The notes: generated from the letters alone by a model not told the origin. 64,000 bases of DNA from Candidatus Micrarchaeota archaeon (GCA_026413765.1 JAOAKI010000004.1:97513-161512); one strand, 5' to 3'; positions 9,102 through 44,429 are shown, numbered from the stretch's first letter. Numbers and translations: made by a program.

Positions 9102-9152
9102 GTGCAATTCTATGCGATAAGTTATTAAGTTGTTTTGTTTTATTTGACCGGT

Positions 9153-9980
9153 TTTATGGACCTGGCTCAAATTATCTTGCTTGGGCTTATCCAAGCAATA
9201 ACCGAATGGCTCCCGCTTTCCTCAAAAACAATCTGCTCATTTGTCTATCTGAATTTTTTTGGAGGCAGTCCAGAAAAACTGGTTTCCGTTCTTCTTTTTT
9301 TGCATCTTGGAACGCTGCTTTCGGCAATCGTGTATTTGAGAAAGGAGCTGTTTGGCATTTTTTCTGAGACTGCAAAAGCCATGCGCCCTTTTCCTGGCAT
9401 CTTGCCAAAATTTTTGGAAAGCAAGCAAGGTTTCATTTTTTTTGCTTTATTGTCGACTGGTGCTGTTGGGCTTCCTTTATTGGTCCTGGAAAAAGCGCTC
9501 TTTCCAACCCTCAGCGGAGAGCTAATTCATATTCTGATGGGCTCTGGACTGGTTCTCACAGGATTTCTTTTGACTGCTAGCTCCAATTCAAGGTGGAGGA
9601 CAGCTGAGCTTGCAAACTGGAAAGATGGGCTTTTTGTTGGTGCTTTGCAAGGGCTCTCTGTGTTGCCAGGCGTTTCAAGGGCAGGCAGCACTACTGCTGG
9701 GCTCATTTGGAGAGGGTTTAATCCATCTTCTGCGCTTTTGCTTTCTTTTTTGCTTTCAATCCCCACTGTAATATTTGCTGAGCTTCTTTTCTGGTCCGCA
9801 AGCCAGCATTTTTCCACTATCAATTTTTCTGATGGCTTTTTGTTGCTAATCAGTAGCTTTATTTTCGGCTATGCCACTATTGATGCATTGCTGCAGCTTG
9901 CTCAACGCTTTAATTTGGCTTGGCTTGCATTTCTTTTTGGGATTATAATGCTAGTTTTCGGCAGCCTTGGAATGAGCTAG
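9153..9980 (+). CDS. uppP: Undecaprenyl-diphosphatase (BacA/UppP family)
   Basis: Eight-TM protein carrying the two BacA signature motifs, TEWLPLSS (compare EFLPVSSSGH) and PGVSRAGSTTAG (compare PGxSRSGxT). The track start at 9135 is a TTG. The ATG is at 9153. Confidence 0.8.
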   Translation, partial: FMDLAQIILLGLIQAITEWLPLSSKTICSFVYLNFFGGSPEKLVSVLLFLHLGTLLSAIVYLRKELFGIFSETAKAMRPFPGILPKFLESKQGFIFFALLSTGAVGLPLLVLEKALFPTLSGELIHILMGSGLVLTGFLLTASSNSRWRTAELANWKDGLFVGALQGLSVLPGVSRAGSTTAGLIWRGFNPSSALLLSFLLSIPTVIFAELLFWSASQHFSTINFSDGFLLLISSFIFGYATIDALLQLAQRFNLAWLAFLFGIIMLVFGSLGMS

Positions 9981-12538
9981 CCGCAGACACCACCTGAGCA
10001 GATGCCCGAGCAGCAATTTATATTAAGCTCGCAGGTAGCTCCTGTTGGAAGGCATGAGCAGGCTTGGATATCACAGATTCTTGAGCAGCATTCTTCGTTC
10101 TTTGTGCATGGCCCGCCTTGTCGCTGGCAATTTATGCAACGCCCGTTTCCTGGCGGGATGCACTGCAAATTATTGCAGCATTGGATATCACTTATGCATG
10201 TTGCGTTTTCTGCATAGCATGCCTGGCATATTCCGCCGATGCATGCTAGATTTGAGCAGCACTGAGCGCTTGATGTGCAGCTTCCGCCTTCTGCCCGGCA
10301 AGTGCTGCATACTCCGTTGGAACAATATGGGGCAGATGGGCAACATTCGCTATCTTGCGTGCAGCTTCCGCCTTGGCGGTTGCAGCATGCGCCATTTACG
10401 CAACTACCCGAGCAGCAATTTACATCTTTCTCACAGGGCGAAAGCACGGCATAGCAGCCGCACACCCCTCCAGCGCAAACTTCACTGCAGCAGTCATGAG
10501 GTCCGTCGTTGCATTCTTTGCCTAAACCCAGGCAAGCTTGGCAAATGCTCGGCCTGCCTCTGCAGAGTATTCCCGCCCCGCAACATTCTTGATCTGCCTG
10601 ACAATTTGTACCGGTATTGGGGCAAAGCGTGCATCTTTTTGCACCTTCCTGGCCCACGCATTTTAGAGTGCCGCAACATTCGCTGTCTTGCGTGCATGTC
10701 TGCCCTATATCGCGGCATACGCAGATTCCGCCTTCACAAATGCGTCCATCACAACAATCTCTATTGACTGTGCAATTCTTTCCAAGCCCGCTGCATGACC
10801 TGCATGTCCCAAATGGCGCGCCAATGCAATTTAGCCCAGGGCAGCACTTGTAGTCTGCATTGCACGGTGTACCTTCTTGATAGCATGGGCGGCAGCCACT
10901 GTCTATGCATACCAACCCAGAACAGCATACCTGCCCTGCGCAGTAGGTTCCTTGCGGCACGCATGCGCCGCATGTTCCAGTCCCATTTTCGTTCATAAAG
11001 CACGCAAGCCCGCTACAACAATCGCTGTTTGTTGTGCAGCTTTGTCCTGACGAGCGGCAGAAGCCGCATTGCCCCATTATGCAAAGCAATCCGCTTCCAG
11101 GGCAGCAATCCGAACTTTGCACGCAATTTCCTCCCTCCGCAACGCAACAGATGCCATTATTGCATGTTCCTCGGCAACAATCACTGCTGTTTTGGCATGC
11201 GCCCCCTATGCCTATGCATGCTTGGCATGTTCCGCCAATGCAAGTCAATCCTTGGCAGCAGTCTGAAGGAGAGTAGCAAGCTTGCCCATTTTGTCTGCAT
11301 TCTTCGCAAAGCTTTGGTCCAGATGCAGGCCCAACGCACACCAAATTCCCGCAGCACTGCGAAGTCTGCTGACATATCTGTCCATTTTCGATGCACGCCT
11401 GGCAATATCCCGCAGGAGTGCATATCAACGGACTGCAACAATCTGATTGGCTTCTGCATTCTTGGTTAATCTCTTTGCATGGCTGGCAAACAGCATCTAT
11501 ACAAAGCAACCCGCTGCAGCAGTCTGTCCCAACTTGGCAACTTTCGCCCTTATGGTGGCAAATTTGGCACACTCCGTCTACACAATTCAGTCCGCCGCAG
11601 CATTCCGATGCGTCTACGCAGCTTTCTCCTTCGCCTTGGCATTCAGAGCAGACACCTGTTGAAAGCATGCAAACAAGTGGCGGGTCTTGTCCCCCGCAGC
11701 AATCCTGGTTCAGGAGGCAACCGCCTTGATTTTGGCTAAGGCAGCACCTTCCTTCTGAACACGATCCAGAGCAACATTCATCATCTGTCATGCAGCTTGT
11801 TCCCAGCCCCTTGCATCCGCTGCATACGCCGCCAATGCATCGCAGGCTTCCGCAGCAATCCTCGCTCGTAGTGCAGGTTTGCGATTCATTGCCGCATATT
11901 GAGCAAATGCCATCAACACACCTGAGGTTTCCGCAGCACTCGTCGCTGCTTGTACACTCGCTTCCCATCCGCTGGCAGGTAATGTTTGCAAACGCACATT
12001 TCAACGCAAGCCTTTTTTCTCCCTCTTGGAACTTGCCGCTCACTCCTACCTTAGAATAATCGAACCTTACCTTTAATTTTACGATTTTGCCCGGCTCGCA
12101 CGGAGGCGAGTCAGAAAGCACAACCCCGATTATCTTTCTTTCTGAGGTGGCAAGGCGCAAAGAATTTGTCTCCGGCCCGCCATATTCACAAAATACGCCG
12201 CTTTGGTTTTCTATCGTTATGCCTGTGACAGTAATCGTATCTACATCGCTGTTTTCGATTGCAAGGATATAGCCTCCCTTGTCAGGCTGGGTGCAAATCA
12301 CACCAAAATAGGCAATTGCTTCATAAATTCTTATTGGTTTGGCTGGTCCTGTCCAATAAAGCCTCGAATCTGTAATTGCGGACTCATCAGAAGGGGAAAG
12401 GAAAGAATTTAGAAAAATCATTACAACTATTCCTATTATCAGGACCATACCAACAGTAAATAGATATTCAGGTGAGGCTTGCCCCTTTGCCTCTCTTTTC
12501 GCTTTTTGAATCATCGCAAAATGCTTCTTTTCTACCAT
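9977..12538 (-). CDS. Giant cysteine-rich tandem-repeat surface protein with an archaeal type IV prepilin-like (class III) signal peptide
   Basis: 853 aa. The N-terminus KAKREAK|GQASPEYLFTVGMVLIIGIVVMIF matches the [KR]-G-Q cleavage motif plus hydrophobic helix of archaeal pilins. A globular region of about 140 aa follows. Then come about 24 tandem modules of 25-28 aa, each with six Cys in the pattern G-x2-C-x5-6-CC-x-G-L-x-C-x3-5-C-x2-C. Confidence 0.85.
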   Translation of the reverse strand: MVEKKHFAMIQKAKREAKGQASPEYLFTVGMVLIIGIVVMIFLNSFLSPSDESAITDSRLYWTGPAKPIRIYEAIAYFGVICTQPDKGGYILAIENSDVDTITVTGITIENQSGVFCEYGGPETNSLRLATSERKIIGVVLSDSPPCEPGKIVKLKVRFDYSKVGVSGKFQEGEKRLALKCAFANITCQRMGSECTSSDECCGNLRCVDGICSICGNESQTCTTSEDCCGSLRCIGGVCSGCKGLGTSCMTDDECCSGSCSEGRCCLSQNQGGCLLNQDCCGGQDPPLVCMLSTGVCSECQGEGESCVDASECCGGLNCVDGVCQICHHKGESCQVGTDCCSGLLCIDAVCQPCKEINQECRSQSDCCSPLICTPAGYCQACIENGQICQQTSQCCGNLVCVGPASGPKLCEECRQNGQACYSPSDCCQGLTCIGGTCQACIGIGGACQNSSDCCRGTCNNGICCVAEGGNCVQSSDCCPGSGLLCIMGQCGFCRSSGQSCTTNSDCCSGLACFMNENGTGTCGACVPQGTYCAGQVCCSGLVCIDSGCRPCYQEGTPCNADYKCCPGLNCIGAPFGTCRSCSGLGKNCTVNRDCCDGRICEGGICVCRDIGQTCTQDSECCGTLKCVGQEGAKRCTLCPNTGTNCQADQECCGAGILCRGRPSICQACLGLGKECNDGPHDCCSEVCAGGVCGCYAVLSPCEKDVNCCSGSCVNGACCNRQGGSCTQDSECCPSAPYCSNGVCSTCRAEGGSCTSSAQCCSNLACIGGICQACYAENATCISDIQCCNNLQCIPPGNGRCINCQRQGGPCTKNEECCSRICDIQACSCLPTGATCELNINCCSGICSGGVCG
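9980..11980 (-). repeat. Intragenic tandem array of about 24 cysteine-knot-like modules of roughly 75-84 nt each. It is degenerate at the DNA level and conserved at the protein level.
   Basis: Recurrent xDCCxGLxCxxGxCxxC peptide units. Strong codon-periodic composition (TGC, TGT, GGN) that leaves long spurious ORFs open on both strands. Confidence 0.8.
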
Positions 12539-12581: not shown

Positions 12582-13349
12582 TCAAAGATTTACTTTCATC
12601 CCGTCTTCCGCAGCAAGCGTCTCAACACCTGTTTGGCGTTCTATTTTTTTTGCTTCTTTGTCTGGACCTGCCTTGAGCATGCTCATTCCAAGATGCGTTA
12701 TTATTGCCTTTTTCGGGCGGGCTTCGTCCAGCAGCTTGCATGCCGCTTGCGTGTCCAGGTGGCCAGGTATCAAATCGTCTTTTGGCTTGAGACAATTTAT
12801 TATAAGCAAATCGGATTTTTCATATTGTTTTCCAATCCCAGCAAAGTATTCTGTGTCAGATGTGTATCCGATTTTTTTGCCATCAATTTCTATAACAAAG
12901 CCAAAACCGGTTGCATCTTCATGCTTGACTCTTGTAGCAAAAAAAGAGAATATTTTCCCTTTTATTTTTTGGCAGAGGCTTTCGGCCGGAGCAACCACCC
13001 AATATTTTTCAAGCATGTTGAGATGGTAATTAGAAACACCACGATCTCCTTTCTCATCACCAAAAATTACGCTTCTTGAGCCTATCAGATGCCCATTTTT
13101 TTTGCCAAACTTCGCAAATGCTTCAATAAGAAGATTAGCATCATTTGTGTGATCTATATGATTATGCGTAATGACTATCGCATCAATTGTCTTTGGGTCT
13201 TGGCGGTATTCAAGCGATGAGAAGAGCGCACCTGGCCCAGGGTCTACATGAAAATTTAAAGAGGCATTCAGCCTCCAGCCACCTGTTTTTCTTATCTGCC
13301 TTACCATGTTGTATCTGCCGCCTCCAGTGCCTAGAAAAACAATTTCCAT
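12582..13349 (-). CDS. MBL-fold metallo-hydrolase (metallo-beta-lactamase superfamily)
   Basis: Glycine-rich N-terminus MEIVFLGTGGG and the HxHxDH motif ITHNHIDH. The internal ATG at 13349 is preferred over the track start at 13400. It overlaps the upstream gene end by 19 nt. Confidence 0.8.
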   Translation of the reverse strand: MEIVFLGTGGGRYNMVRQIRKTGGWRLNASLNFHVDPGPGALFSSLEYRQDPKTIDAIVITHNHIDHTNDANLLIEAFAKFGKKNGHLIGSRSVIFGDEKGDRGVSNYHLNMLEKYWVVAPAESLCQKIKGKIFSFFATRVKHEDATGFGFVIEIDGKKIGYTSDTEYFAGIGKQYEKSDLLIINCLKPKDDLIPGHLDTQAACKLLDEARPKKAIITHLGMSMLKAGPDKEAKKIERQTGVETLAAEDGMKVNL

Positions 13350-15454
13350 TGCAACCCTCCGCCAAATGCTGCAACCAAAATGATAATTAATGGCATGCAT
13401 ATGCTGCCATCTTTTTTTGGCGATCCGCCAATATCCAACGTTTGATTGATCTCATACCAACTTCCGACTTCATCTTGCCATCCAATCCACACTTTGTGCT
13501 TGCCTTCCTGCAACACAAAATTGATTTCATCTTCCTCTCCTATTGCTGTTGTCTCACCATCATCTATCCTTATGGTTAGATTTTTTGGCATATTTTGTCT
13601 TTCAGTTTTTATTTTCACTTCATATGTGCCTTCACTTATTTTCGTGATCGAAGTGTCAGCCACTTTGACAGTTGGCTGTTTTTTTACGTTTATGAATTTG
13701 TGGTAGGATGTGCTTGTGGTTGCGCCTTTTACTGCCAGGCTTATTGGCTCTTGCAAGCCAAATTCTGGCAAAACCGATATTGTTATCTGAACAGGCTTTT
13801 CAATCTTCATTTCATACGCGCTTTTTTGGCTCCCATAGGCAAATGCTATAGTGACTGTTTGGGGATATTCTTTTGCAGAAATGGCAAATGTTAGGTTTGC
13901 CTGTCTGCCTTCAACATAGGCAGCAGGAAGCGAAATCTCCTCTATTTTCAATCCTTCTTCTTCCACCGACGCATTTGATATTTCGTATTCAAGCCATTGC
14001 AAGTCTCCGTTAGCATATGCAAGCAAGATTTTTTGCTTGCCTTGGCTTTTGCCGCTGTAAAAGTCATAATATGGAGTTTCGAGCATGTCTATCTTGCTGA
14101 TCTGATTTCCAATGAAGACATAAGCACTTCCATTTTTGCCGCTGGCTTCCTGTTGGAATATTATTGTATTTTTTTCTCCTATTTTTACTTTATCTTTGTA
14201 CAGCCTTGCATTAGGTGTACCTTGCCTTTCTGCCCGCGGATCAACTCTTACGCTTATGCTTCTCTTTTCCAAATATGGTGAATTCAAAGTCAATGGGCAG
14301 CTGTATTGGTAGCTTGGCGATATATTTGCTGGGACTTTGACAATCCAGCTGGCCACTGTGCTTACATTTGGCCTTAAAATAAGATGTTTAGTTGGCGTTT
14401 CCACTTCAAACGCACCCAAACCGACACACGTTGACAAGGTCACCGGAATGACAGCATACTCTTTGCCTTCGATTTCAAGAAATGCTGCGGTGGCAGATTT
14501 TGGAGGCAGTCGTTTTGCTGCAATATCAAAACTGTAGTCTTTTTTCGGTTCATCTTGTTTAAAGTCAAGAAGAACAATATTGCTTGCCATTGGTCCGCTC
14601 TTACCGCTTGTCTCCCATTCAATTCGCGCATTTTTTGGGAAATAATTTGCGACAAGGAGATTGGTTTCTTCTATCTCAAAAAATTTGCCTAATTCAACAT
14701 GCAGTGCGTCAAGTCTTCCAACTTCAAGCCAAGTTGGATCCACTGGCATCCATTTGCCGAGATAGACTTCGTTCCATGCATGTCCTTGCCATGTGCCATA
14801 TTTTTCACTAAAAACGTAGCCAGTAACGTATCTGGTCGGAAATCCTGCTGCCCTTGACAATGCAGCAAAAAGAGTAGCATATTCAAAGCAGACGCCCTCC
14901 TTTGTCTCCAAAATACTGATCGCATCTTTCTTTTCTCCAACGTATTGCTCATTGTATTTGACATTGTTGTGCACCCAAATCGCTATCTTTGCAACCTTTT
15001 CAAAATCATCTACAGAGCCTTCCACAATTTTGTCTGCAAGTGCCCTTATTTTTGGGTGGTCGCTTTGCGTTCGATTCGTTGCCTGAAGGTATCTGGCCTC
15101 ATTGTCTGCAAGTTGGCCGCCTCCAATGTCCTGCGTCATCCTTTTTGTTGTGTTTAGATGGATTGCAAATGAATAATGGAAAGGATTTTTTGGTTTTTTT
15201 GCTCCAATCTGGACGTATCTATTCCCCTCTTTCTCAAATGTTTTTTGAGCATCTACTTTTGCGCTTTGGTATTCAGTGGAGGCCGGGACTTGAATTTGTA
15301 GTGACAAGTCTTCTATAGCTCCTCCATGCACAATTACGCTGCCGCTTTCATTTATCAGCACCGTTGCTGAAGTTATGAGCTGGGGAATAAATTGTCCATC
15401 CGCAAAAATAATAGATAGAGTAAGAAGCATCGGAATAATGTTAATGATTCGCAT
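13331..15454 (-). CDS. Secreted or membrane-anchored transglutaminase-like (papain-fold cysteine protease-like) protein
   Basis: 707 aa. N-terminal signal peptide MRIINIIPMLLTLSIIFA. Transglutaminase-core Cys/His/Asp motifs GVCFEYATLFAALSRAAGFPTRYVTGY, GHAWNEVYL and PVDPTW. C-terminal TM anchor PLIIILVAAFGGGL. Confidence 0.78.
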   Translation of the reverse strand: MRIINIIPMLLTLSIIFADGQFIPQLITSATVLINESGSVIVHGGAIEDLSLQIQVPASTEYQSAKVDAQKTFEKEGNRYVQIGAKKPKNPFHYSFAIHLNTTKRMTQDIGGGQLADNEARYLQATNRTQSDHPKIRALADKIVEGSVDDFEKVAKIAIWVHNNVKYNEQYVGEKKDAISILETKEGVCFEYATLFAALSRAAGFPTRYVTGYVFSEKYGTWQGHAWNEVYLGKWMPVDPTWLEVGRLDALHVELGKFFEIEETNLLVANYFPKNARIEWETSGKSGPMASNIVLLDFKQDEPKKDYSFDIAAKRLPPKSATAAFLEIEGKEYAVIPVTLSTCVGLGAFEVETPTKHLILRPNVSTVASWIVKVPANISPSYQYSCPLTLNSPYLEKRSISVRVDPRAERQGTPNARLYKDKVKIGEKNTIIFQQEASGKNGSAYVFIGNQISKIDMLETPYYDFYSGKSQGKQKILLAYANGDLQWLEYEISNASVEEEGLKIEEISLPAAYVEGRQANLTFAISAKEYPQTVTIAFAYGSQKSAYEMKIEKPVQITISVLPEFGLQEPISLAVKGATTSTSYHKFINVKKQPTVKVADTSITKISEGTYEVKIKTERQNMPKNLTIRIDDGETTAIGEEDEINFVLQEGKHKVWIGWQDEVGSWYEINQTLDIGGSPKKDGSICMPLIIILVAAFGGGLQWKLFF

Positions 15455-23809: not shown

Positions 23810-24064
23810 TCATTGCGGCTTGATTGATTCGAGGGCAGAAAGTATCGCCCACATTTGAGTCCTTGCATGCATAGGTATGTTTATGTCTTCACTTACTCCT
23901 TCGATGGCATAGATTGCCGCAGATATCCTCGTTGAAAGGTCGTCTTTGCTTTTGAGCCTTTCTTTTGCTTCCGCAAGAGCTCTTCTGATATTTTTCGGCA
24001 CCGTAGTGTCTTCACCCAATGTCTCAATCATTTCAATAATCTGCGCGACCTTTTTTTCCACCAT
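23810..24064 (-). CDS. UPF0147-family small protein (archaeal, about 85 aa)
   Basis: MVEKKVAQIIEMIETLGEDTTVPKNIRRALAEAKERL has the length and charge pattern of UPF0147. The track ORF is a 5' extension that reads through the tRNA gene on the opposite strand. It was trimmed to the ATG at 24064. Confidence 0.6.
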   Translation of the reverse strand: MVEKKVAQIIEMIETLGEDTTVPKNIRRALAEAKERLKSKDDLSTRISAAIYAIEGVSEDINIPMHARTQMWAILSALESIKPQ

Positions 24065-24164
24065 AATAACACCCTCTATTTCTAGTGATTGTAAGCCCTC
24101 TACCAGTCCTTTTTGGAATTTAAAGGAACTAAATTTATAATCATTCAACCAAAATATTTTATTA

Positions 24165-24271
24165 GGGCCCGTGGCGCAGGCTGGATAGCGCGGCAGACTT
24201 CTAGCGGTTCCCCTCTTTGTGGGTATGCGGCAGGAATCTGAAGGTCGTGAGTTCAAATCTCACCGGGCCCG
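24165..24271 (+). tRNA. tRNA-Arg(TCT) with an intron of about 32 nt 3' of the anticodon loop
   Basis: Hand fold gives a 7-bp acceptor stem (GGGCCCG/CGGGCCC), D-arm GCGC-10 nt-GCGC, anticodon stem GCAGA with loop CTTCTA (anticodon TCT), a T-arm GTGAG-TTCAAAT-CTCAC and discriminator G. About 32 extra nt (24204-24235) precede the 3' anticodon-stem strand TCTGA. The intron and anticodon stem 3' strand are not cleanly resolved by hand. Confidence 0.6.
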
Positions 24272-24273
24272 CT

Positions 24274-24936
24274 ATGCAGTCAGCTACACGAATAAAAAAA
24301 GGCAAGATAGAGAAAGTAATCACAATTCTGAAAAAAACTTACCCTAACGCCCGCTGCACGCTCAATTATAAAACACCAATCGAACTTCTTGTTGCCACGA
24401 TTTTGTCTGCGCAATGCACTGATGAAAGAGTAAACAAATTGACACCCCCTCTTTTTTCAAAATATAGGAAGGCCGAAGATTTTGCAGAAGCTCCTCTGTC
24501 CGATCTCAAGCGCTATATCAAGTCTGCTGGATTTTATAACACCAAAGCAAGATATATCAAAGAAGCTTGCAGAATAATTCACCAAAAATATGGTGGCAAA
24601 TTGCCAAATCAGATGAAGCAGCTTCTTGAGCTTCCAGGGGTCGGCAGAAAAACCGCAAATATACTGCTGGGAAATATATATGGGATTCATGAGGGCATCC
24701 CGATCGACACGCATGCCTATAGAATTAGCAGGAGGCTAGGCTGGACAGTCAAAAATAGCCCTGAGGCTATAGAATTCGACCTAATGAAAATCATTCCAAA
24801 AAAATATTGGCTAAAGATTTCGGATTTGTTTGTCCATCATGGGAGGGCAATTTGCAAAGCTAAAAAGCCTGCCTGTAGCCGCTGCCCTATTTCTGCCTAT
24901 TGTCCAAAAATAGGAGTCAAAAGAGTTGCAAAATAG
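24274..24936 (+). CDS. nth: Endonuclease III (HhH-GPD DNA glycosylase/AP lyase with a 4Fe-4S cluster)
   Basis: HhH motif LPGVGRKTANIL, catalytic Lys/Asp region and the C-terminal CxxxxxxCxxCxxxxxC cluster (CKAKKPACSRCPISAYC). The ATG at 24274 lies 3 nt after the tRNA. The track ORF start at 24217 overlaps the tRNA. Confidence 0.9.
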   Translation: MQSATRIKKGKIEKVITILKKTYPNARCTLNYKTPIELLVATILSAQCTDERVNKLTPPLFSKYRKAEDFAEAPLSDLKRYIKSAGFYNTKARYIKEACRIIHQKYGGKLPNQMKQLLELPGVGRKTANILLGNIYGIHEGIPIDTHAYRISRRLGWTVKNSPEAIEFDLMKIIPKKYWLKISDLFVHHGRAICKAKKPACSRCPISAYCPKIGVKRVAK

Positions 24937-25712: not shown

Positions 25713-26438
25713 ATGGGCGAGGAGGAAGCGGACATCTTTTCTGAATTAAAGTCTTTCTTGCATTCTTCAATTTTTGGAGTAGGCACTCACAAACTTGAGC
25801 ATAAGATCTTGCGATATGCAACATACACATTTTTATCCCAGCTATTTGCCCTCGGGCTGGTCTATTATTTTTACTCCTCTTCTATTCAAAATTCAGAAAT
25901 TTTGTTCCCATATCTCTTGTATACAATAATTTCATCGGTTGCGGTTTCAGCTTCTTCATTTTACCATTATGCCCATCGCCTGAGCTTTACCTGCATGGAA
26001 GGGATGATGGCTGGCATGACAAATGGGATGATTGCTGGCTTTCTTTTTGGCGCCATCACAGGCGCCACAAACGGAATGTTTGTAGGGAGTTTGGTTGGGA
26101 TGTTTGTTGGCATGGCAATTGGTTTATGGTGCGGAAAGTGCTGTGGCATAATGGGTACACTTGAAGGTCTGATGGCTGGATTGATGGCAGGCCCAATGGG
26201 TGCAATGTTATCTGTCATGATGCTCTTTGACAATTTGGCTATTTTCATTCCTATTTTGGTTTTTGCTTGCATCATTATTCTTGTTGCGTTTGGGTATATG
26301 GTCAGGACCACTGCGGCTGCTCGCACAGAAGGAAAAGATGTCGGATTTTTGCCATTTTTCCTTTTCGCTCTTTTTCTGACTTTGTTTGTGCACCTTATTG
26401 TCTTGTTCGGTCCTCGCTCTACATCCGTGGTTGTATGA
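25713..26438 (+). CDS. Methionine-rich polytopic membrane protein, a putative Cu(I)-binding or transport accessory protein
   Basis: 241 aa. A central segment of about 80 aa holds about 18 Met in MxxxM/GMxxGM motifs plus a CGKCCG cluster. It is flanked by TM helices and sits between copZ and copA, overlapping the copA start by 4 nt. Confidence 0.5.
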   Translation: MGEEEADIFSELKSFLHSSIFGVGTHKLEHKILRYATYTFLSQLFALGLVYYFYSSSIQNSEILFPYLLYTIISSVAVSASSFYHYAHRLSFTCMEGMMAGMTNGMIAGFLFGAITGATNGMFVGSLVGMFVGMAIGLWCGKCCGIMGTLEGLMAGLMAGPMGAMLSVMMLFDNLAIFIPILVFACIIILVAFGYMVRTTAAARTEGKDVGFLPFFLFALFLTLFVHLIVLFGPRSTSVVV

Positions 26439-28594
26439 AACGTGAAGATTTTACGATCAATGGCATGCATTGCGCTTCCTGTGCGGCACTCATAAGAAGT
26501 AAACTCCTGTCACTGCCTGGTGTAAAAAACGCTAATGTAAATTTTGCCGCTGCAAGGGCACAGGTAGAATACGACAATACAATTCTAACTCAGAGTGAGA
26601 TCGTCAATGCTATCACATCTTTGGGCTATTCAGTATCTGTTGGTTTTGACCCTCAAAGAGAAAAACTCGAGCGACAAAAAGAGATTTCCAGCTTGAGAAA
26701 AAAGCTGATTATCAGCCTTCTGCTAACTATTCCCACCATCATTATTGGTATGTTTTTGATGGATTTCCCTAATAGAATGTTGATACTTTTTTTGCTTGCA
26801 ACGCCAGTCCAGTTTTTTGTCGGCTGGCAGTTTTATCTTGGTGCATTTTCTGCACTGCGCAACCGATCTGCAACGATGGATACGCTAATTGCTATTGGCA
26901 CTTCTGCAGCATATGTTTATTCGCTTGGAGCAGTTTTTGGTCTGGCAACTGAACAATATTTTGAGGTTTCAACAACACTCATCACGCTTGTCGTAGCTGG
27001 AAAATATCTTGAAGCAATTGCAAAAGGTAGAGCAAGCGAGGCAATTCGCAAAATGCTTGCTTTATCCCCAAAGTTTGCGCATGTGAAAAAAGGCAGCAAA
27101 GAGGTCAAGGTCCCTATTGAGAATGTAAAAAAGAATGATATTGTAATCATCAAGCCTGGTGAAAGAATACCTGTCGATGGAATTGTGTTATCGGGTCACT
27201 CGACTGTTGATGAGTCAATCATTACAGGAGAGCCAATTCCAGTGGAGAAGGCTCCAAAATCTCGTGTTGTTGCTGGCTCAATAAATCGACATGGCATACT
27301 TGTCATAAGAGCCCTATGCGATGGGAAAGATTCCACAATTGCGCGAATAATAAAATTGGTTGAAGAAGCTCAAGGCAGCCATGCGCCAATCCAAAGGTTT
27401 GCAGACATCGTAAGTTCTTATTTTGTTCCGCTCATTATATTTGTAGCCTCTACCACTTTTGTCTATTGGTTCGTAGTTGCCAATTTGCCGCTTTCGACTG
27501 CGCTTATGTTTGCGATCTCCGTGCTTGTCATTGCCTGCCCTTGTGCATTGGGCTTAGCCACTCCCACCGCACTTATTGTTGGGATTGGGATAGGCGCGCA
27601 GCGTGGCATTTTAATCAAGAATGCAGAGGCGCTAGAATCACTGCATAAAGTCAATGCTATTGTTTTTGACAAAACCGGTACTCTAACAAAGGGCAAGCCG
27701 GCAGTAACAGATATTGTGACATTTTATCGCTATGATAAGAGAAAACTGCTTACAATCTTAGCTTCGCTAGAGAAATACTCTGAGCATCCGCTGGCAGAAT
27801 GCATTTTGGAGGAAGCAAAAAAGAATCAAATATCCACATTAACTGTCCAAGATTTCAAATCTATTCCAGGATACGGCATAACTGGCAAAATTAAAGGAAT
27901 GCAGTTTTACGCAGGAAACCAAAAGCTTTTCAACCCTATACCAGCCAAAATCATGCGTGCCACTGCCACCTTAGAAAATGAAGGCAAGACGGTATTTTTC
28001 ATTGGGCAAAAGAAAAAAATAATCGGCCTTGTCGCAGTATCTGACGAAATAAAGCCAACGGCAGCGCAAGCTGTTGCTGAGCTCAAAAAAGAAAAAATAG
28101 AGTGCTGGCTGATTACTGGGGACAACCAGAGAGTAGCAAATGCGGTCGCAAGGAAAATAGGCATCCAAAACTTTTTCGCAAACGTTCTGCCCGAAAAAAA
28201 GGCGGAATATATCAAAGAGTTGCAGAAAAAGGGAAAATTCGTTGCAATGGTTGGTGATGGAATCAATGATGCACCTGCATTAGCGGCGGCAGATGTTGGA
28301 ATTGCAGTTGGATCAGGAACAGATGTTGCACTAGAGAGCGGAAGCATAGTCCTCCTGCGTTCCGATCCAATGGATGTCGTGCATAGCTTTCGACTTGGAA
28401 AAGCGACATTAAACAAGATTCGGCAAAACATGTTTTGGGCATTTATATACAATGTTTTGGGAATTCCCATCGCAGCCGGAGTTTTTTATTCCAGTGGCTT
28501 AGCCCTGTCTCCAATAATTGCAGGAGCAGCAATGGCTCTTTCAAGCATCTCGGTGGTGGTTAATGCAATATTGTTGAATTTTGAAAGAATATAA
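26435..28594 (+). CDS. copA: Copper-translocating P1B-type ATPase CopA
   Basis: N-terminal HMA domain (GMHCASC), TM CPC motif (ACPCALGLATP), DKTGTLT phosphorylation site, GDGINDAP hinge and TGE actuator. The 56-aa N-terminal extension in the track is the out-of-frame tail of the upstream gene. The ATG is at 26435. Confidence 0.95.
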   Translation: MKREDFTINGMHCASCAALIRSKLLSLPGVKNANVNFAAARAQVEYDNTILTQSEIVNAITSLGYSVSVGFDPQREKLERQKEISSLRKKLIISLLLTIPTIIIGMFLMDFPNRMLILFLLATPVQFFVGWQFYLGAFSALRNRSATMDTLIAIGTSAAYVYSLGAVFGLATEQYFEVSTTLITLVVAGKYLEAIAKGRASEAIRKMLALSPKFAHVKKGSKEVKVPIENVKKNDIVIIKPGERIPVDGIVLSGHSTVDESIITGEPIPVEKAPKSRVVAGSINRHGILVIRALCDGKDSTIARIIKLVEEAQGSHAPIQRFADIVSSYFVPLIIFVASTTFVYWFVVANLPLSTALMFAISVLVIACPCALGLATPTALIVGIGIGAQRGILIKNAEALESLHKVNAIVFDKTGTLTKGKPAVTDIVTFYRYDKRKLLTILASLEKYSEHPLAECILEEAKKNQISTLTVQDFKSIPGYGITGKIKGMQFYAGNQKLFNPIPAKIMRATATLENEGKTVFFIGQKKKIIGLVAVSDEIKPTAAQAVAELKKEKIECWLITGDNQRVANAVARKIGIQNFFANVLPEKKAEYIKELQKKGKFVAMVGDGINDAPALAAADVGIAVGSGTDVALESGSIVLLRSDPMDVVHSFRLGKATLNKIRQNMFWAFIYNVLGIPIAAGVFYSSGLALSPIIAGAAMALSSISVVVNAILLNFERI

Positions 28595-28622
28595 TTTCGG
28601 AAAATGAAAAATAGGTGAGAGG

Positions 28623-29042
28623 ATGGATTCCAAATATTTGTTTTATGTTGTTATGGTGGGTACATTTTTGTTCTTAGGGTTGATTTTTTTCTCAAGTCAA
28701 AAACTTGAGGATATGCCAATTGACGAAACTATCCCTGTCTCCAATCTTTCGACACCACAAAATATAAGTGGCGAAGCTCAGGAAGTCTCGATCAGAGCGC
28801 TGAAAACAGGAAGATATGACAAAAGTATTATTGAGGTTAAGGCAGGCGTCCCAATCAAGCTGTCATTTACTGCTGATCCAGGGGCTGGTTGTGGCCGCCA
28901 GCTGCTCATCGACAACGTCGGGATAAATCTTATTTCGAGAAACGGAGAAACCGTTGTCGCCTATTTCACATTTCCGCAGCCAGGCAGGTATAATTTCCAT
29001 TGTGCGATGAATATGTTTAGGGGAACTTTCATAGCAAATTGA
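28623..29042 (+). CDS. Membrane-anchored cupredoxin-like small protein, a possible copper-binding protein
   Basis: N-terminal TM anchor, then a beta-rich domain ending GRYNFHCAMNMFRGTFI. The Cys, His and Met are spaced like a type-1 copper site. It lies immediately downstream of copA. Confidence 0.5.
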   Translation: MDSKYLFYVVMVGTFLFLGLIFFSSQKLEDMPIDETIPVSNLSTPQNISGEAQEVSIRALKTGRYDKSIIEVKAGVPIKLSFTADPGAGCGRQLLIDNVGINLISRNGETVVAYFTFPQPGRYNFHCAMNMFRGTFIAN

Positions 29043-33247: not shown

Positions 33248-33772
33248 ATGGGTTTGAGACCTGCGAGAACATGCCGTTCAATAGATAAGCCAGCATGGAC
33301 ACGCTATTCAAAAAAGAAACCGCGCAAATCCTATGTAAAAGCAATGCCTCACCTTTCATTGCTTGTGTATGAAATGGGGAATAGAAATCAGCCATTTGAC
33401 TATACTTATGACCTTGTAGCCGAAGAAAGCGTGCAGCTTCGCGATAATGCTTTGGAAGCAGCAAGGCAAGCTGCAAACAAATATTTGGAAAAGTCGAGCC
33501 CAAATGCATACTTTTTCAAAGTAAGAGTCTATCCACACAATGTAATCCGTGAAAACAAGATGATTGCCGGAGCAGGCGCGGACAGACTGCAAAAGGGAAT
33601 GAGGAGGGCATATGGAAGGCCTACTGATAGGGCAGCGCGCGTAAAAAAAGGGCAGGCAATTTTCACAATAAATGTAAAGGGCGACCATGCAGCAGATGTT
33701 GAAGAGGCATTCAGGCGTGCCCAAAGGAAGCTTTCCGGCAAATACAAGATTGTAAAGAAGCCGTTCAGTTGA
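33248..33772 (+). CDS. rpl10e: 50S ribosomal protein L10e (uL16)
   Basis: Highly conserved L10e/uL16 sequence (PARTCRSIDKPAWTRY, RMRRAYGRPTDRAARVKKGQ). Confidence 0.95.
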   Translation: MGLRPARTCRSIDKPAWTRYSKKKPRKSYVKAMPHLSLLVYEMGNRNQPFDYTYDLVAEESVQLRDNALEAARQAANKYLEKSSPNAYFFKVRVYPHNVIRENKMIAGAGADRLQKGMRRAYGRPTDRAARVKKGQAIFTINVKGDHAADVEEAFRRAQRKLSGKYKIVKKPFS

Positions 33773-33777
33773 TATTT

Positions 33778-35664
33778 ATGAGCAATGAACGCATAAAAAC
33801 ACAGCTTGATGATTTGATTGAAATATTGAAAAATGCTTCTAGGCCGATGAGCGTTCGGGAGCTTTCAGAAGCATGCGGTTTGAATGAGAAAGACACGCTC
33901 AAATGGGTCAGCATTTTGGAAAACGAAGGGTCTGTCGAGCTTCAAAACAAGATAAGCGGAGTCTATGTGAGATGGATTGCCTTCACTGACGTTAAAAGCC
34001 AGCATCCGCACGAAATCTCTGAAACTGCAATCAGGGTAGCGCAGGAGATAGAGCAAAAAGCAAAAGAAGAGATGAAAAGGATGATTCCAAAGCAAGAGGA
34101 TGCTGGACAGGCAAGCGAGCTTGCGGAAGCTTACATTGAGGATGAGGAAAGAAAAATCGAAGATCAGCTGAAAAAAGTCGAGTCAATGCTTGAGATGTTG
34201 CGGAAGCAGAAAGAATCCTCCGGCAGCCAAGAGATGCAAAGCCAGCAGCAGACATCTGCACCTTCAACCCCGCAACAGCCGCAGGAAAGTGAAAACACGC
34301 AAAGCCTTGAAGTCGCAGGCAAAAACGCCGAAAGTGAAAACGTTGGAGAACTGCCCGCTGAACATGCAAAGGAAACTCGCGTTCAGCACAATTATTCAAC
34401 CTTAGCAGCTCCTTCGATAAAGCCAATTTTCAAGCAAAAGAAGAAAAAGATAGAAAAGCCAAAACCAGTGCCCGTAAGAAGTGTTTCGATACAATTTTCG
34501 GAAAGGCTTGCAAGGCAAGTGCAAAAAATCATAAAACAAAACCAGCAGATTGAGAAATTGCGCCAAGAAAAGGAAAGGCTTCTTGTTGAATATTATCTGC
34601 CTCTCCAAAGAAAGTTCGAATCAGAAATTGAAACGATATCGGAGAGGGTGTTGCGCTTAGAAAAAAATATCCTTGGCATGCAACAAAAAGCTGCAGACCT
34701 GCCCAATCAAATCTCATCAATAGAGAAACTGCAATTTGCATCCATTAAAGCCTATAACCAGGCGCAGAGGGCTTATGACGAGGCGGTTGCGCAAATGGAA
34801 GATGTGCTTTCTGCGCTGTCAACAGAGAGAGAAAAAATCGCTTCATTGATTGATGAGTCTCGCAGCGATGTTGCAATGCACAAGGCAAAGATGCTTGAGT
34901 TGGAGCAGACAATCAAAGATATTGGCGCATTGGAGGAGGACGTCTCAAACAAGGTCATCCAAGCTCGCGCAGCTCTTGCAGAAGAGGCTGAAAGGATTGC
35001 TTCCGCAGAAAAATACATCAGTGAGCTGAAAAGCCTCAAAGAAGAAATCATCCAGACAGTTGCGGATATGAAAAGGGAGATGGGTACGACAAAAGCAGCA
35101 CTGACAACTCTGGAGAAACAGATAGAGCAGTTAAAGCAAGTTGAGCTTTACCTTGTCTCTCTTCGAAAAGACTATGACCAAAAAATGGATGAAATATCAG
35201 CCTATATCCGGCAAGGCAACCAAGATTTTGAGACTCTGAGGGAAGCGGTCGAGGCAAATTTCGTCCGAAGGTATCTAAAAGAGCTCAGGGAGCTGACAGA
35301 AAGCTATGCGTATGAATTTAACCAGGCAAAACGCCTTGAAAGCGACATTGATAAACAAATCGATGCCGAGAAGAAGAAGCTTGAGCAATTAATTGAAGAA
35401 GGAAAAAAGATTGCGCACCTTTATGAGCTCCAAAGCAAAGAGGTGCAGGGAGCCGAAGCATTTGAGCAACATGGCAAGCGGCTGCAAGATATTGAGCAAT
35501 TGGTCCAAAAAAGAAGCGAGCTTGAGTCAATTATTGCCCAAATAATGGAAAAGAGAGGGCCGCACATTACAGTTGCCTCTCAGCCCATCGTACTAAAAAG
35601 GAAAAAGAAGCAGCGCACTGGCAACAAAAAGCATTCAAAAGGCGGTAAGAAAGCAAAGAAATAG
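33778..35664 (+). CDS. Long coiled-coil protein with an N-terminal winged-helix domain and a lysine-rich C-terminal tail
   Basis: The N-terminal 70 aa (RPMSVRELSEACGLNEKDTLKWVSILENEGSVEL) look like a wHTH. About 520 aa of E/K/Q/L-rich heptad-like sequence follow. The C-terminus is KRKKKQRTGNKKHSKGGKKAKK. The track start is a TTG. The ATG is at 33778. Confidence 0.6.
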   Translation: MSNERIKTQLDDLIEILKNASRPMSVRELSEACGLNEKDTLKWVSILENEGSVELQNKISGVYVRWIAFTDVKSQHPHEISETAIRVAQEIEQKAKEEMKRMIPKQEDAGQASELAEAYIEDEERKIEDQLKKVESMLEMLRKQKESSGSQEMQSQQQTSAPSTPQQPQESENTQSLEVAGKNAESENVGELPAEHAKETRVQHNYSTLAAPSIKPIFKQKKKKIEKPKPVPVRSVSIQFSERLARQVQKIIKQNQQIEKLRQEKERLLVEYYLPLQRKFESEIETISERVLRLEKNILGMQQKAADLPNQISSIEKLQFASIKAYNQAQRAYDEAVAQMEDVLSALSTEREKIASLIDESRSDVAMHKAKMLELEQTIKDIGALEEDVSNKVIQARAALAEEAERIASAEKYISELKSLKEEIIQTVADMKREMGTTKAALTTLEKQIEQLKQVELYLVSLRKDYDQKMDEISAYIRQGNQDFETLREAVEANFVRRYLKELRELTESYAYEFNQAKRLESDIDKQIDAEKKKLEQLIEEGKKIAHLYELQSKEVQGAEAFEQHGKRLQDIEQLVQKRSELESIIAQIMEKRGPHITVASQPIVLKRKKKQRTGNKKHSKGGKKAKK

Positions 35665-43228: not shown

Positions 43229-43231
43229 AAT

Positions 43232-44359: not shown

Positions 44360-44376
44360 AACCTCACTTTGAGATT

Positions 44377-44390
44377 GTTATAAAATATAT
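44377..44390 (+). promoter_or_regulatory. TATA-box-like TTATAAAATATATA upstream of the PPDK_N-domain gene
   Basis: Read directly. It is positioned about 40 nt before the ATG at 44430. Confidence 0.35.
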
Positions 44391-44429
44391 ACGAAAGTGA
44401 TTAAATACTTTTTGAACAATATTCAGCCA

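What the first reader, a model, noticed from the sequence alone, without database searches (positions are those of the whole stretch)
9977..12538. Pilin-like protein of 853 aa built almost entirely of about 24 tandem six-cysteine modules
The N-terminus AK|GQASPEYLFTVGMVLIIGIVVMIF is a textbook archaeal class III (type IV prepilin) signal. It implies processing by a PibD/FlaK-type prepilin peptidase and exposure on the cell surface. After a domain of about 140 aa, the rest is about 24 repeats of G-x2-C-x5-6-CC-x-G-L-x-C-x3-5-C-x2-C. The protein has on the order of 150 cysteines and is about 18-20% Cys. The CC doublet is at positions 2-3 of the six. That does not match the knottin, hevein, EGF or granulin spacings that I know. 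The repeats are diverged at the nucleotide level, so this is an old, selectively maintained array rather than a recent expansion. A disulfide-stapled fibre or adhesin on a pilin stalk would be a new kind of archaeal surface appendage. It could mediate attachment, for example to a host or partner cell.
Basis: partly seen in the sequence, partly recalled or inferred. Interest (0 to 1): 0.88.

Follow-up and report, generated by a model that had tools for sequence, protein, structure and literature searches.

The report
Archaeal pilin carrying 24 cystine-knot modules
A tiny symbiotic-type archaeon (Micrarchaeota) encodes a real surface protein in which a type IV pilin "handle" is fused to a chain of 24 disulfide-knotted mini-domains of the kind found in spider and cone-snail toxins and animal Dickkopf proteins, a fold previously said to be absent from archaea.

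Summary
Window 9977-12538 (-) encodes 853 aa with 148 Cys. The last 665 aa are exactly 24 six-Cys modules, diverged at DNA level and colinear with a 47%-identical orthologue.

- Pilin part, supported: the N-terminus (KG|QASPEYL plus hydrophobic helix) and the domain at residues 44-187 belong to a family of about 97 cluster representatives. These share [KR][GA]|Q-x3-E-Y-L. Their predicted fold best matches the Sulfolobus Aap pilin. In metagenomes their genes sit beside T2SSF, T2SSE and prepilin-peptidase genes.
- "Matches no known spacing", wrong: shifted by one Cys, each module is C-x6-C-x5-CC-x3/4-C-x4-9-C, the canonical knottin / Dickkopf CRD1 C-subdomain framework.

Evidence for the knottin reading:
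- Pfam Dickkopf_N and Toxin_12 score above threshold.
- The AlphaFold model (pLDDT 91) superposes on conotoxin and spider toxins at 0.6-1.1 Å.
- Cys losses occur only as I+IV, II+V or III+VI pairs.

Best reading: an extreme "modular pilin". About half of the family's complete members carry grafted modules (Ig-like, beta-helix, 1 to ~13 knottins). It most likely displays a disulfide-stapled stalk for attachment. Function and pilus incorporation are inferred. Archaeal knottins and a 24-mer array appear unreported.

The parts
9977..12538 (-). Complete ORF, 853 aa plus stop: modular pilin-like protein
   Evidence: full-length colinear orthologue P0001
12482..12538 (-). Leader peptide, aa 1-19 (MVEKKHFAMIQKAKREAKG). 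An alternative start at M9 (nt 12514) would give an 11-aa leader. Predicted prepilin-peptidase cleavage after G19.
   Evidence: In-register sub-threshold match to Pfam PF04021. Family consensus [KR][GA]|Q-x-x-x-E-Y-L. 10 of 43 relatives hit PF04021 at E<=1e-3. Upstream sequence.
12404..12481 (-). Mature N-terminus, aa 20-45: Q20 (+1), E24 (+5) and the hydrophobic alpha1-N helix (QASPEYLFTVGMVLIIGIVVMIFLNS)
   Evidence: AlphaFold helix 23-45. Q20 and E24 are invariant in alignment A5.
11978..12403 (-). Pilin head, aa 46-187: helix 51-63 plus a beta-sandwich 69-180. Four Cys (82, 117, 147, 181); C147 and C181 are >=90% conserved in the family.
   Evidence: pLDDT >93 across the sandwich. Foldseek top hit is the S. 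acidocaldarius Aap pilin 8q30, E 1.8e-5. 97 relatives found. Conservation.
9983..11977 (-). Array of 24 contiguous ICK/Dickkopf-type six-Cys modules, aa 188-852 (C-x6-C-x5-CC-x3-8-C-x4-9-C, linkers 0-2 aa). Potentially 72 disulfides.
12582..13400 (-). Context only: metallo-beta-lactamase-fold gene 43 nt upstream on the same strand. Synteny is conserved with the orthologue. A functional link is not established.
13331..15454 (-). Context only: 707-aa transglutaminase-like protein with an N-terminal signal-like sequence and a C-terminal hydrophobic tail, same strand. Transglutaminase-family surface peptidases are reported to be linked to archaeal type IV pilus loci.
   Evidence: Pfam Transglut_core 1.3e-29; Makarova et al. 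2016, PMC4858521. Not shown to be linked here.

Best explanation
The gene encodes a modular type IV pilin-like surface protein of a Micrarchaeota (DPANN) archaeon.

1. Inferred from motif, family and relatives' gene context: the protein enters the membrane through a class III signal. A Peptidase_A24-type prepilin peptidase cuts after Gly19, leaving Gln20.
2. Inferred from predicted fold and family context: residues 20-187 form a pilin module, a hydrophobic alpha1 helix plus an Ig-like beta-sandwich. A Tad/Epd-like type IV filament machine (T2SSE ATPase plus T2SSF platform) can polymerise this module. Because a 665-aa extension hangs from its C-terminus, it is most likely a low-abundance, tip-located subunit, as proposed for bacterial modular pilins.
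3. Shown at the level of sequence, covariation and structure prediction: the extension is 24 back-to-back inhibitor-cystine-knot modules. These are of the same type as the Dickkopf CRD1 C-subdomain. Two neighbouring modules together resemble the colipase/Dkk fold. Each module is stapled by disulfides I-IV, II-V and III-VI and joined to the next by 0-2 residues. The result would be a thin, protease- and heat-resistant, semi-rigid beaded stalk.
4. Inferred: the stalk serves attachment, either as a long-reach adhesin or as a spacer presenting many small binding surfaces to a host or partner cell or a substrate.
For: Modules:
- Spacing regularity, exactly 24 x 6 Cys ending at the C-terminus.
- Pfam Dickkopf_N 74.8 bits (cut-off 25, 16 stretches) and Toxin_12 32.9 bits (cut-off 21, 10 stretches).
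- Three-module AlphaFold model, pLDDT 91.3.
- Foldseek list dominated by Dkk and true knottins: GXIA 0.6 Å over 25 columns, SGTx1 1.1 Å over 27, hanatoxin 0.9 Å over 28.
- Dkk4 CRD1 C-subdomain has disulfides C66-C80, C73-C85 and C79-C90 on the same spacing, and is described as ICK-like (PMC6078440).

Disulfide partners:
- The orthologue lacks exactly four array Cys, as I+IV of module 2 and I+IV of module 12.
- Across 168 parsed modules, all 22 four-Cys modules lack I+IV (13), I plus one Cys of the doublet (5), II+V (3) or III+VI (1). None falls in the other 11 pair classes.

Pilin part:
- 97 relatives of the head domain. In nearly all of them it starts about 30-40 residues from the N-terminus.
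- At least 81 of 97 carry [KR][GA]|Q-x3-E-Y-L plus a hydrophobic helix (plus sequences read).
- PF04021 is significant in 10 of 43 relatives.
- Model pLDDT 87.3 with a helix-plus-sandwich shape.
- The top PDB match is the Aap pilin, E 1.8e-5; archaellins and a Pyrobaculum type IV pilin also appear.

Machinery:
- Among 149 neighbours of family pilin genes, T2SSF is the most frequent Pfam family (6) and Peptidase_A24 occurs twice.
- Locus L081 has T2SSF, T2SSF and T2SSE next to four pilin genes.

Modularity:
- 43 bare pilins, 25 with Cys-rich extensions, 22 with other extensions.
- The other extensions are He_PIG, PKD, beta-helix, BNR and similar modules.
- Concept of tip-located modular pilins: PMC8179133.

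Organism: Micrarchaeota.
Against: - No prepilin peptidase, ATPase, platform protein or other pilin gene lies in the 64-kb window. The rest of the genome could not be examined.
- Pfam Class_IIIsignal is below threshold for the target itself. Pro at +4 is unusual.
- The paired-loss counts are not independent events, and the parser has priors.
- Nothing tested here shows what the array binds, or that it binds anything.
- Formation of about 74 disulfides outside an archaeal cell has no identified catalyst here.
Confidence: 0.7

Rival explanations
1. Same protein and same fold, but not a filament subunit. After class III signal processing it stays anchored in the cell membrane by its alpha1 helix, as archaeal class III-signal substrate-binding proteins do. 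It then forms a surface 'hair' rather than a pilus tip.
For: No pilus genes in the window. Archaeal prepilin peptidases also process non-pilin surface proteins (PibD substrate range, PMC4858521). Another Micrarchaeota protein, L001 (544 aa), displays about 17 of the same modules from a plain N-terminal membrane anchor.
Against: The head domain is a conserved family. Most of its members are bare 150-200-aa pilin-sized proteins, clustered in tandem and next to T2SSF/T2SSE genes. Its predicted fold matches a polymerising pilin.
Confidence: 0.22
2. A polyprotein precursor that is cut into 24 free knottin peptides (toxins, antimicrobials or protease inhibitors), like plant multi-knottin precursors.
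For: The modules resemble toxin and inhibitor knottins. Tandem knottin precursors exist in eukaryotes (own knowledge).
Against: Linkers are only 0-2 residues. In three junctions there is no linker (Cys VI directly abuts the next Cys I), and linker residues are not conserved. That leaves no room for a processing site. The same modules occur singly or in small numbers on pilins. Each module is positionally conserved with the orthologue.
Confidence: 0.04
3. A metal-sequestering, metallothionein-like Cys-rich protein whose thiols bind Cu, Zn or Cd rather than forming disulfides.
For: 17% Cys. A heavy-metal P-type ATPase and a cupredoxin-like gene lie about 14-16 kb away.
Against: The Cys spacing is fixed and identical to disulfide-knotted families. 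Cys are lost in partner pairs, as expected for disulfides. The fold prediction is confident. The protein is exported through a class III signal. The metal genes are not adjacent.
Confidence: 0.03
4. An assembly or annotation artefact: collapsed or misjoined repeats, or a non-coding ORF.
For: None found. The exact product is not on record in the indexed gene collection.
Against: There is no DNA-level tandem repeat to collapse. An 886-aa colinear orthologue with conserved synteny comes from an independent sample. The ORF is unbroken with a perfect 24 x 6 Cys count.
Confidence: 0.01

Closest known systems
Inhibitor cystine knot (knottin) mini-proteins, e.g. omega-conotoxins, spider toxins (Pfam Toxin_12, PF07740), squash trypsin inhibitors
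   Same: Six-Cys framework C-C-CC-C-C with the same loop lengths. Predicted backbone within 0.6-1.1 Å. Evidence for I-IV, II-V and III-VI pairing. C-terminal beta-hairpin.
   Different: Known knottins are free peptides of 25-40 aa, or at most two in tandem, made by eukaryotes, a few bacteria and viruses. The KNOTTIN database paper stated that they were absent from archaea (PMC5753296). Here 24 are fused head to tail with 0-2-residue linkers on an archaeal pilin. No propeptide; no toxin function is implied.
[quoted passage not shown]
   Different: Dkk CRDs are 10-Cys two-subdomain units found once or twice per animal protein and act in Wnt signalling. Here the best Pfam stretch matches only the 6-Cys C-subdomain part of the profile (positions 21-51). 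The unit is reiterated 24 times. No relation to Wnt biology is implied.
Bacterial modular type IV pilins (Streptococcus sanguinis PilB and PilC; CofB/TcpB)
   Same: A small pilin module with functional module(s) grafted to its C-terminus by a short linker. A family-wide variety of grafted modules. Proposed tip location and adhesion role.
   Different: That survey used the bacterial prepilin signature IPR012902 and does not mention archaea; its largest case had 12 repeat copies. Here the signal is the archaeal Q+1/E+5 class III type, the head is an archaeal Ig-like sandwich, and the graft is 24 knottins.
Archaeal type IV pilins: S. acidocaldarius Aap pilin (PDB 8q30); Methanococcus EppA-processed pilins with the DUF361/PF04021 signal
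   Same: Class III signal with Gln at +1. An N-terminal helix followed by a beta-sandwich. Association with VirB11-type ATPase, TadC-type platform and A24 peptidase genes.
   Different: Those pilins are about 130-180 aa with no extension. Sequence identity to Aap is only 18%.
Double-knot toxin DkTx, Hi1a and other 'SCREPs' (secreted cysteine-rich repeat proteins)
   Same: Tandem ICK domains in a single chain; avidity through multivalency is the proposed advantage.
   Different: Two domains, not 24. Animal venom proteins, soluble, not anchored.
Other prokaryotic arrays found here: Ca. Fermentimicrarchaeum limneticum 544-aa protein (L001); an alphaproteobacterial 249-aa protein (L004); archaeal P0003 (824 aa)
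   Same: The same module in tandem: 17, 6 and 19 units parsed.
   Different: Different anchors: a plain TM helix, a Sec signal, and an unrelated N-domain behind a class III-like start (RTG|QAATEL). This suggests the array is a mobile 'display cassette'.

Membership tests
Type IV pilin / class III signal peptide protein | Short basic leader ending in Gly/Ala at -1, then a conserved +1 residue and Glu at +5 | tested here: met
   ...REAKG|QASPE: K at -2, G at -1, Q at +1, E at +5. Q20 and E24 are invariant in the 41-sequence alignment A5. Family statistics.
Type IV pilin / class III signal peptide protein | About 20-residue uncharged hydrophobic alpha1-N helix immediately after the cleavage site | tested here: met
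   YLFTVGMVLIIGIVVMIFL; AlphaFold helix 23-45.
Type IV pilin / class III signal peptide protein | Match to the curated model Pfam PF04021 (Class_IIIsignal) above its gathering score | tested here: not met
   In register (residues 18-42 against profile positions 2-26) but 13.2-15.9 bits against a cut-off of 23.7. The orthologue scores 18.8 bits. 10 of 43 family members reach E<=1e-3, best 6.7e-7.
Type IV pilin / class III signal peptide protein | Globular head with a pilin fold following alpha1 | tested here: met
   Foldseek top hit is the S. acidocaldarius Aap pilin 8q30: E 1.8e-5, probability 1.0, covering the whole pilin. H. salinarum archaellins and the P. calidifontis type IV pilin also appear. 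Many generic Ig-like sandwiches score similarly.
Type IV pilin / class III signal peptide protein | Cognate prepilin peptidase, assembly ATPase and platform protein in the same genome | not testable with these tools
For the family: T2SSF (6) and Peptidase_A24 (2) among 149 neighbours, and T2SSE in L081 and L083.
Type IV pilin / class III signal peptide protein | Positive prediction by FlaFind/PilFind; experimental cleavage and polymerisation | not testable with these tools
   These programs are not available here. From memory, the FlaFind pattern wants [ILMVTAS] at +2 to +4. The target has Pro at +4 and the family has Gly at +2, so a strict FlaFind run might fail.
Inhibitor cystine knot (knottin) | Six Cys with framework C-x(3-7)-C-x(3-8)-CC-x(0-7)-C-x(1-17)-C | tested here: met
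   24 of 24 modules: loops 6-7 / 4-6 / 0 / 3-8 / 4-9. The consensus ranges are quoted from memory.
Inhibitor cystine knot (knottin) | Disulfide connectivity I-IV, II-V, III-VI | tested here: met
   Indirect. The orthologue lost exactly I+IV twice. 22 of 22 four-Cys modules lack I+IV or I+doublet (18), II+V (3) or III+VI (1). These are not independent events, and there is no chemical mapping.
Inhibitor cystine knot (knottin) | Knotted topology: the III-VI disulfide threads the ring formed by the I-IV and II-V disulfides | not testable with these tools
   Model coordinates are not exposed. Only backbone superpositions are available.
Inhibitor cystine knot (knottin) | Backbone fold like solved knottins | tested here: met
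Inhibitor cystine knot (knottin) | Curated sequence model (Pfam Toxin_12) above gathering score | tested here: met
   32.9 bits against 21, E 1e-7, 10 stretches. The score is summed over repeats.
Dickkopf_N (PF04706) | Whole-protein score above Pfam gathering threshold | tested here: met
   74.8 bits against 25, E 6.7e-21, 16 stretches.
Dickkopf_N (PF04706) | Complete 10-Cys, two-subdomain CRD1 unit | tested here: not met
   The best stretch covers only profile positions 21-51 of 51, the C-subdomain. The unit here has 6 Cys. So it works like, and may be distantly related to, the Dkk C-subdomain, but it is not a Dickkopf protein.
Modular pilin (sensu Raynaud et al. 2021) | An N-terminal pilin module fused through a short linker to a non-pilin module | tested here: met
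   The pilin head ends at C181 and the first knottin starts at C188. Family census: 47 of 90 complete members carry extensions of many kinds.

The most novel reading that the evidence does not exclude
These are the first knottins recognised in Archaea, and this is the longest tandem knottin array seen in any protein examined here (24 units, about 72 disulfides). DPANN archaea have a dedicated family of modular type IV pilins. In that family such knottin chains form an ultra-stable, tens-of-nanometres stalk at the pilus tip, which captures the host or partner cell. The shared spacing and fold with the Dickkopf/colipase C-subdomain would then point to a prokaryotic reservoir of this 'animal' module.
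Probability: 0.35. Interest if true: 0.82.

Novelty: new variant of a known kind. Interest (0 to 1): 0.68.

Why it matters
- Knottins: the knottin database paper explicitly flags Archaea as the one domain without them (PMC5753296). This protein and its relatives would fill that gap. They would also show that the fold can be concatenated 24 times with almost no linker, which is relevant to engineering ultra-stable multivalent scaffolds.
- DPANN biology: how these ultrasmall, mostly host-dependent archaea hold on to partner cells is largely unknown. A pilin family with interchangeable display modules (knottin chains, Ig-like repeats, beta-helices) gives concrete, testable adhesin candidates.
- Pilus biology: the 'modular pilin' idea would extend from Bacteria to Archaea.
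- Evolution: the Dickkopf/colipase-type module would turn out not to be confined to eukaryotes.

Tried and rejected
1. Rejected: it leaves an orphan Cys and a 5-Cys terminal unit.
2. Local hmmsearch with a module HMM to score Cys occupancy. Alignments were truncated at module edges and were unusable.
3. A simple regex tiling and a first dynamic-programming tiler. Both mis-registered modules lacking Cys I and could not tell III from IV. They were replaced by a tiler with a gap penalty and protein-specific loop priors.
4. Regex definition of the pilin-domain end. Too crude; replaced by HMM envelopes.
5. Exact-sequence look-ups of the target with either start, and of the identical PolD. Not on record, so the public annotation and the rest of the contig could not be seen.
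6. NCBIfam: no family.
7. Cluster look-up for names of the three homologues: none.
Repeated with a tighter subset.
9. AFDB50 fold search for taxonomic spread: library unavailable.
10. Model coordinates for direct S-S distance measurement: not exposed.
11. Literature searches for archaeal knottins or prokaryotic Dickkopf_N: nothing found. This is absence in the searched library only.
12. Considered and rejected: polyprotein precursor, metallothionein-like metal binder, and assembly artefact (see rival explanations).


Full report
THE OBSERVATION. It has 148 Cys, 17.4% overall and 21.5% of the C-terminal 673 residues, with 27 CC doublets. The region has higher G+C (0.53) than its surroundings (about 0.42), consistent with Cys/Gly-rich coding. 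Tandem Repeats Finder detects no repeat inside the array, and only 18-54-nt stretches at 60-80% identity exist. The units are therefore old and diverged, and there is nothing for an assembler to collapse. An 886-aa protein from an independent ENA sample (P0001) is 47% identical over 99% of the length and aligns module for module. It lies downstream of the same metallo-beta-lactamase-fold gene.

THE REGISTER AND WHAT THE MODULE IS. Shifting by one Cys gives exactly 24 complete units between C188 and C852, the penultimate residue. The spacing is C-x6-C-x5-CC-x3-8-C-x4-9-C and the linkers are 0-2 residues. Loop1 = 6 in 23/24 modules, loop2 = 5 in 22/24, CC in 24/24.

Independent tests agree on the knottin reading:
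- Pfam gives Dickkopf_N at 74.8 bits (cut-off 25, 16 stretches; best stretch on profile positions 21-51) and Toxin_12, the spider ICK toxins, at 32.9 bits (cut-off 21).
- The nearest PDB sequences are Dkk4, murinotoxin, omega-atracotoxin and asteropsin, all weak hits.
- An AlphaFold model of modules 5-7, using the other three-module windows of the protein and its orthologue as the alignment, has mean pLDDT 91.3 and a beta-hairpin at the end of each module.
- Foldseek against the PDB gives no E <= 1e-3, as expected for 25-residue domains. The list is nevertheless Dkk4 CRD1, Dkk1, double-knot toxin and genuine knottins. Conotoxin GXIA superposes at 0.6 Å over 25 columns, SGTx1 at 1.1 Å over 27 and hanatoxin at 0.9 Å over 28; EETI-II and MCoTI are also listed.
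- The Dkk4 structure paper reports that the CRD1 C-subdomain has disulfides C66-C80, C73-C85 and C79-C90. That is I-IV, II-V, III-VI on the same x6/x5/0/x4/x4 spacing. The authors call it structurally homologous to ICK toxins (PMC6078440).

DISULFIDE PARTNERS FROM COVARIATION. The orthologue lacks exactly four of the 144 array Cys. They are Cys I and Cys IV of module 2 and Cys I and Cys IV of module 12. The other apparent mismatches are one-residue alignment shifts. A dynamic-programming parser was run on all Cys-array proteins collected that have at least two complete modules. It parsed 168 modules, 131 of them complete. All 22 modules with exactly four Cys lack I+IV (13), I plus one Cys of the doublet where III and IV cannot be told apart (5), II+V (3) or III+VI (1). 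None falls in the other 11 possible pair classes. These are not independent events and the parser has priors, but the pattern is what disulfide partners with knottin connectivity predict.

THE N-TERMINAL PART IS A PILIN MODULE. The target's own match to Pfam Class_IIIsignal is in register but below threshold (13-16 bits against 23.7), so 'textbook' is too strong. The case rests on the family.
- A profile of the globular part (residues 44-187 plus the orthologue) finds 97 cluster representatives among 1.84 billion, 53 of them at E <= 1e-10. In nearly all, the domain begins about 30-40 residues from the N-terminus.
- At least 81 of the 97 start with [KR]-[GA]|Q-[GAS]-[AS]-[TS]-E-Y-L followed by a hydrophobic helix. 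The rest begin inside the helix, which points to truncated gene calls.
- The target reads KG|QASPEYLF in the same register: Q at +1, E at +5, Y at +6, L at +7. The cleavage site is therefore G|Q, not K|G. The leader is 19 aa, or 11 aa if translation starts at M9.
- Pfam Class_IIIsignal is significant in 10 of 43 relatives scanned, best 6.7e-7.
- The AlphaFold model of residues 1-214 (41-sequence alignment) has mean pLDDT 87.3. It shows helix 23-45, a kink, helix 51-63, and a beta-sandwich 69-180 at pLDDT above 93.
- Its best PDB match is the Sulfolobus acidocaldarius Aap pilin (8q30, E 1.8e-5, whole pilin aligned). Halobacterium archaellins and the Pyrobaculum calidifontis type IV pilin rank lower, and generic Ig-like sandwiches make up the rest.
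- The head has four Cys, of which C147 and C181 are at least 90% conserved. The total potential is 2 + 72 disulfides.

LINK TO PILUS MACHINERY. The 64-kb window holds no prepilin peptidase, VirB11/PilB-type ATPase, PilC/TadC-type protein or second class III-signal gene. The only intramembrane aspartyl protease is a presenilin/SPP homologue. A metagenome scan with a tight subset of the family found more than 340 relatives, and 80 loci were kept. In these loci the pilin genes often stand in tandem: five in L023 and three to five in L079, L081 and L083. Among 149 non-pilin neighbours within 5.5 kb, the most frequent Pfam family is T2SSF (6), and Peptidase_A24 occurs twice. L081 carries T2SSF, T2SSF and a T2SSE ATPase next to the pilins. 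L083 carries the ATPase and L079 a T2SSF. The head domain therefore belongs to a genuine type IV filament subunit family.

A MODULAR FAMILY. Of the 97 representatives, 43 are bare pilins, 25 carry Cys-rich extensions, 22 carry other extensions and 7 are fragments. The other extensions are He_PIG and PKD Ig-like repeats, right-handed beta-helix, BNR/sortilin, mucin-type WxxW, FGE-sulfatase and PT-HINT. In the 80 metagenomic loci, 130 class III-type ORFs have a median length of 152 aa. Only six have 10 or more Cys, and the richest has 68. The target and its orthologue, with 144 array Cys, are thus the extreme of a continuum.

[quoted passage not shown] Their survey used the bacterial prepilin signature, does not mention archaea, and its largest case had 12 repeat copies (PMC8179133).

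The same knottin array also occurs behind other anchors:
- P0003 (824 aa) has an unrelated N-domain behind RTG|QAATEL and lies in an archaeal gene context.
- A 544-aa protein of Ca. Fermentimicrarchaeum limneticum has a plain N-terminal hydrophobic helix and 17 modules by the parser.
- Bacterial proteins carry the modules behind Sec signals in alphaproteobacterial and myxobacterial MAGs.

ORGANISM. The window is archaeal: TFB, PolD, Topo VI and an intron-containing tRNA. Its PolD large subunit is 100% identical to a protein of an NCBI MAG labelled Candidatus Micrarchaeota archaeon (249-kb contig). The next relatives, at 78-80%, are labelled Ca. Anstonellaceae. It is therefore a DPANN archaeon, a group generally regarded as dependent on host cells (abstracts listed).

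MECHANISM PROPOSED.
- Shown: domain architecture, module count and spacing, Pfam membership, confident predicted folds, partner-wise Cys loss, family membership of the head, and machinery genes next to relatives.
- Inferred: cleavage after G19 by an A24 peptidase. Also inferred is incorporation of the pilin module into a Tad/Epd-like filament, probably at the tip because of the 665-aa appendage. The alternative is retention in the membrane by alpha1.
- Inferred: oxidation of the array into a chain of 24 triple-disulfide knots joined by 0-2 residues. I estimate a length of a few tens of nanometres from typical knottin dimensions (own knowledge, not computed).
- Inferred: an attachment role.

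The array is acidic (61 D+E against 32 K+R), rich in Gly, Ser and Thr, poor in aromatics (11), and carries few sequons. Positional orthologues are more alike than paralogues: 55% against 43% overall, and 42% against 24% when Cys are excluded. Each module is therefore individually maintained. What it binds is unknown. An analogy is the type IV pilus-driven episymbiosis reported for Saccharibacteria (abstract listed).

RIVALS. A membrane-anchored, non-polymerised version of the same protein is the serious alternative (confidence about 0.22). A polyprotein precursor is unlikely because the linkers are 0-2 non-conserved residues. A metallothionein-like role is unlikely given the fixed knottin spacing, partner-wise losses and export signal. 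An artefact is excluded for practical purposes.

NOVELTY. [quoted passage not shown] My searches found no paper on archaeal knottins, on Dickkopf_N in prokaryotes, or on archaeal modular pilins. The 2016 census of archaeal type IV pili mentions cysteine-rich domains only in ATPases and S-layer-like proteins. Both building blocks are known kinds. The combination, the domain of life and the copy number are new, hence 'new variant of a known kind'. That census also notes an unexplained link between transglutaminase-family surface peptidases and archaeal type IV pilus loci. A 707-aa transglutaminase-like protein lies two genes upstream of the target on the same strand.

VERDICT. This is a real and striking protein. 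The 'unknown module' claim does not: the modules are knottin/Dickkopf-type. Interest is 0.68, high for knottin and DPANN specialists. It is tempered because both folds are known and because function, processing and pilus incorporation are all still inferred.

Noticed in passing
window 13331-15454 (-): A 707-aa transglutaminase-core protein with an N-terminal signal-like sequence and a C-terminal hydrophobic tail lies two genes upstream of the target on the same strand. Its end overlaps the start of the MBL-fold gene as called mechanically. The literature notes an unexplained link between transglutaminase-family surface peptidases and archaeal type IV pilus loci (PMC4858521).
   Followed up: partly
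window 38048-38893 (+): An Amidase_3 (N-acetylmuramoyl-L-alanine amidase) gene in an archaeon, which should have no murein of its own. It could act on bacterial cell walls or be a transferred gene.
   Followed up: no
window 42001-44400: G+C drops to 0.336 against about 0.42 elsewhere. Two adjacent minus-strand ORFs (42617-43228 and 43232-44359) have no Pfam match. This could be a foreign or mobile island.
   Followed up: no
window 52366-53262 (-): A presenilin/signal-peptide-peptidase homologue (PF06550), an intramembrane aspartyl protease. It is not the A24 prepilin peptidase family, but it is the only intramembrane aspartyl protease in the window.
   Followed up: no
window 24165-24271 (+): A tRNA gene spanning 107 nt against a 71-position model, so presumably intron-containing. 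It is overlapped by two mechanical ORFs (23810-24256 and 24217-24936).
   Followed up: no
window 33769-35664 (+): A 631-aa ORF with no Pfam match, lying among what look like ribosomal-protein genes (judged only from their N-terminal sequences).
   Followed up: no
window 26267-29042 (+): A heavy-metal P-type ATPase (HMA + E1-E2 ATPase) followed by a small cupredoxin-like protein. This is a copper-handling pair about 14 kb from the Cys-rich gene.
   Followed up: partly
protein P0058 (355 aa; family member): Pilin head, then two Cys modules, then a Hint-type region (by eye the C-terminus looks Hint-like). In the family census, PT-HINT, Intein_splicing and Hint_2 each match one member. This suggests a self-cleaving or toxin-delivery pilin variant.
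   Followed up: no
L023 4160-6832; L081 8757-10471 and 12879-13355: Metagenomic loci with four or five tandem class III-signal pilin genes of this family. In L081 they lie next to two T2SSF genes and a T2SSE ATPase, a compact Tad-like pilus locus in presumably DPANN-type archaea.
   Followed up: partly
L001 8089-9054 (+): In Ca. Fermentimicrarchaeum limneticum, about 700 nt upstream of the knottin-array gene with one opposite-strand gene between them, lies a 321-aa multi-TM protein. Its C-terminal part (…PVSYQCTFPAGLTCTT…GIACTQ…) looks like a secreted beta-domain. Its relation to the array is unknown.
   Followed up: no
protein P0002 / L085 3001-5238: A 745-aa protein from NCBI assembly GCA_003358065.1 (organism not identified here). 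It has a Sec-type signal and about 22 of the same modules with loop2 = 6-8. It supplied three clean paired Cys losses. It may be eukaryotic.
   Followed up: partly
window 9977-9980: The target's stop codon overlaps by 4 nt the end of the convergent undecaprenyl-diphosphatase (BacA/UppP) gene at 9135-9980 (+). There is therefore no room for a terminator between the two genes.
   Followed up: no
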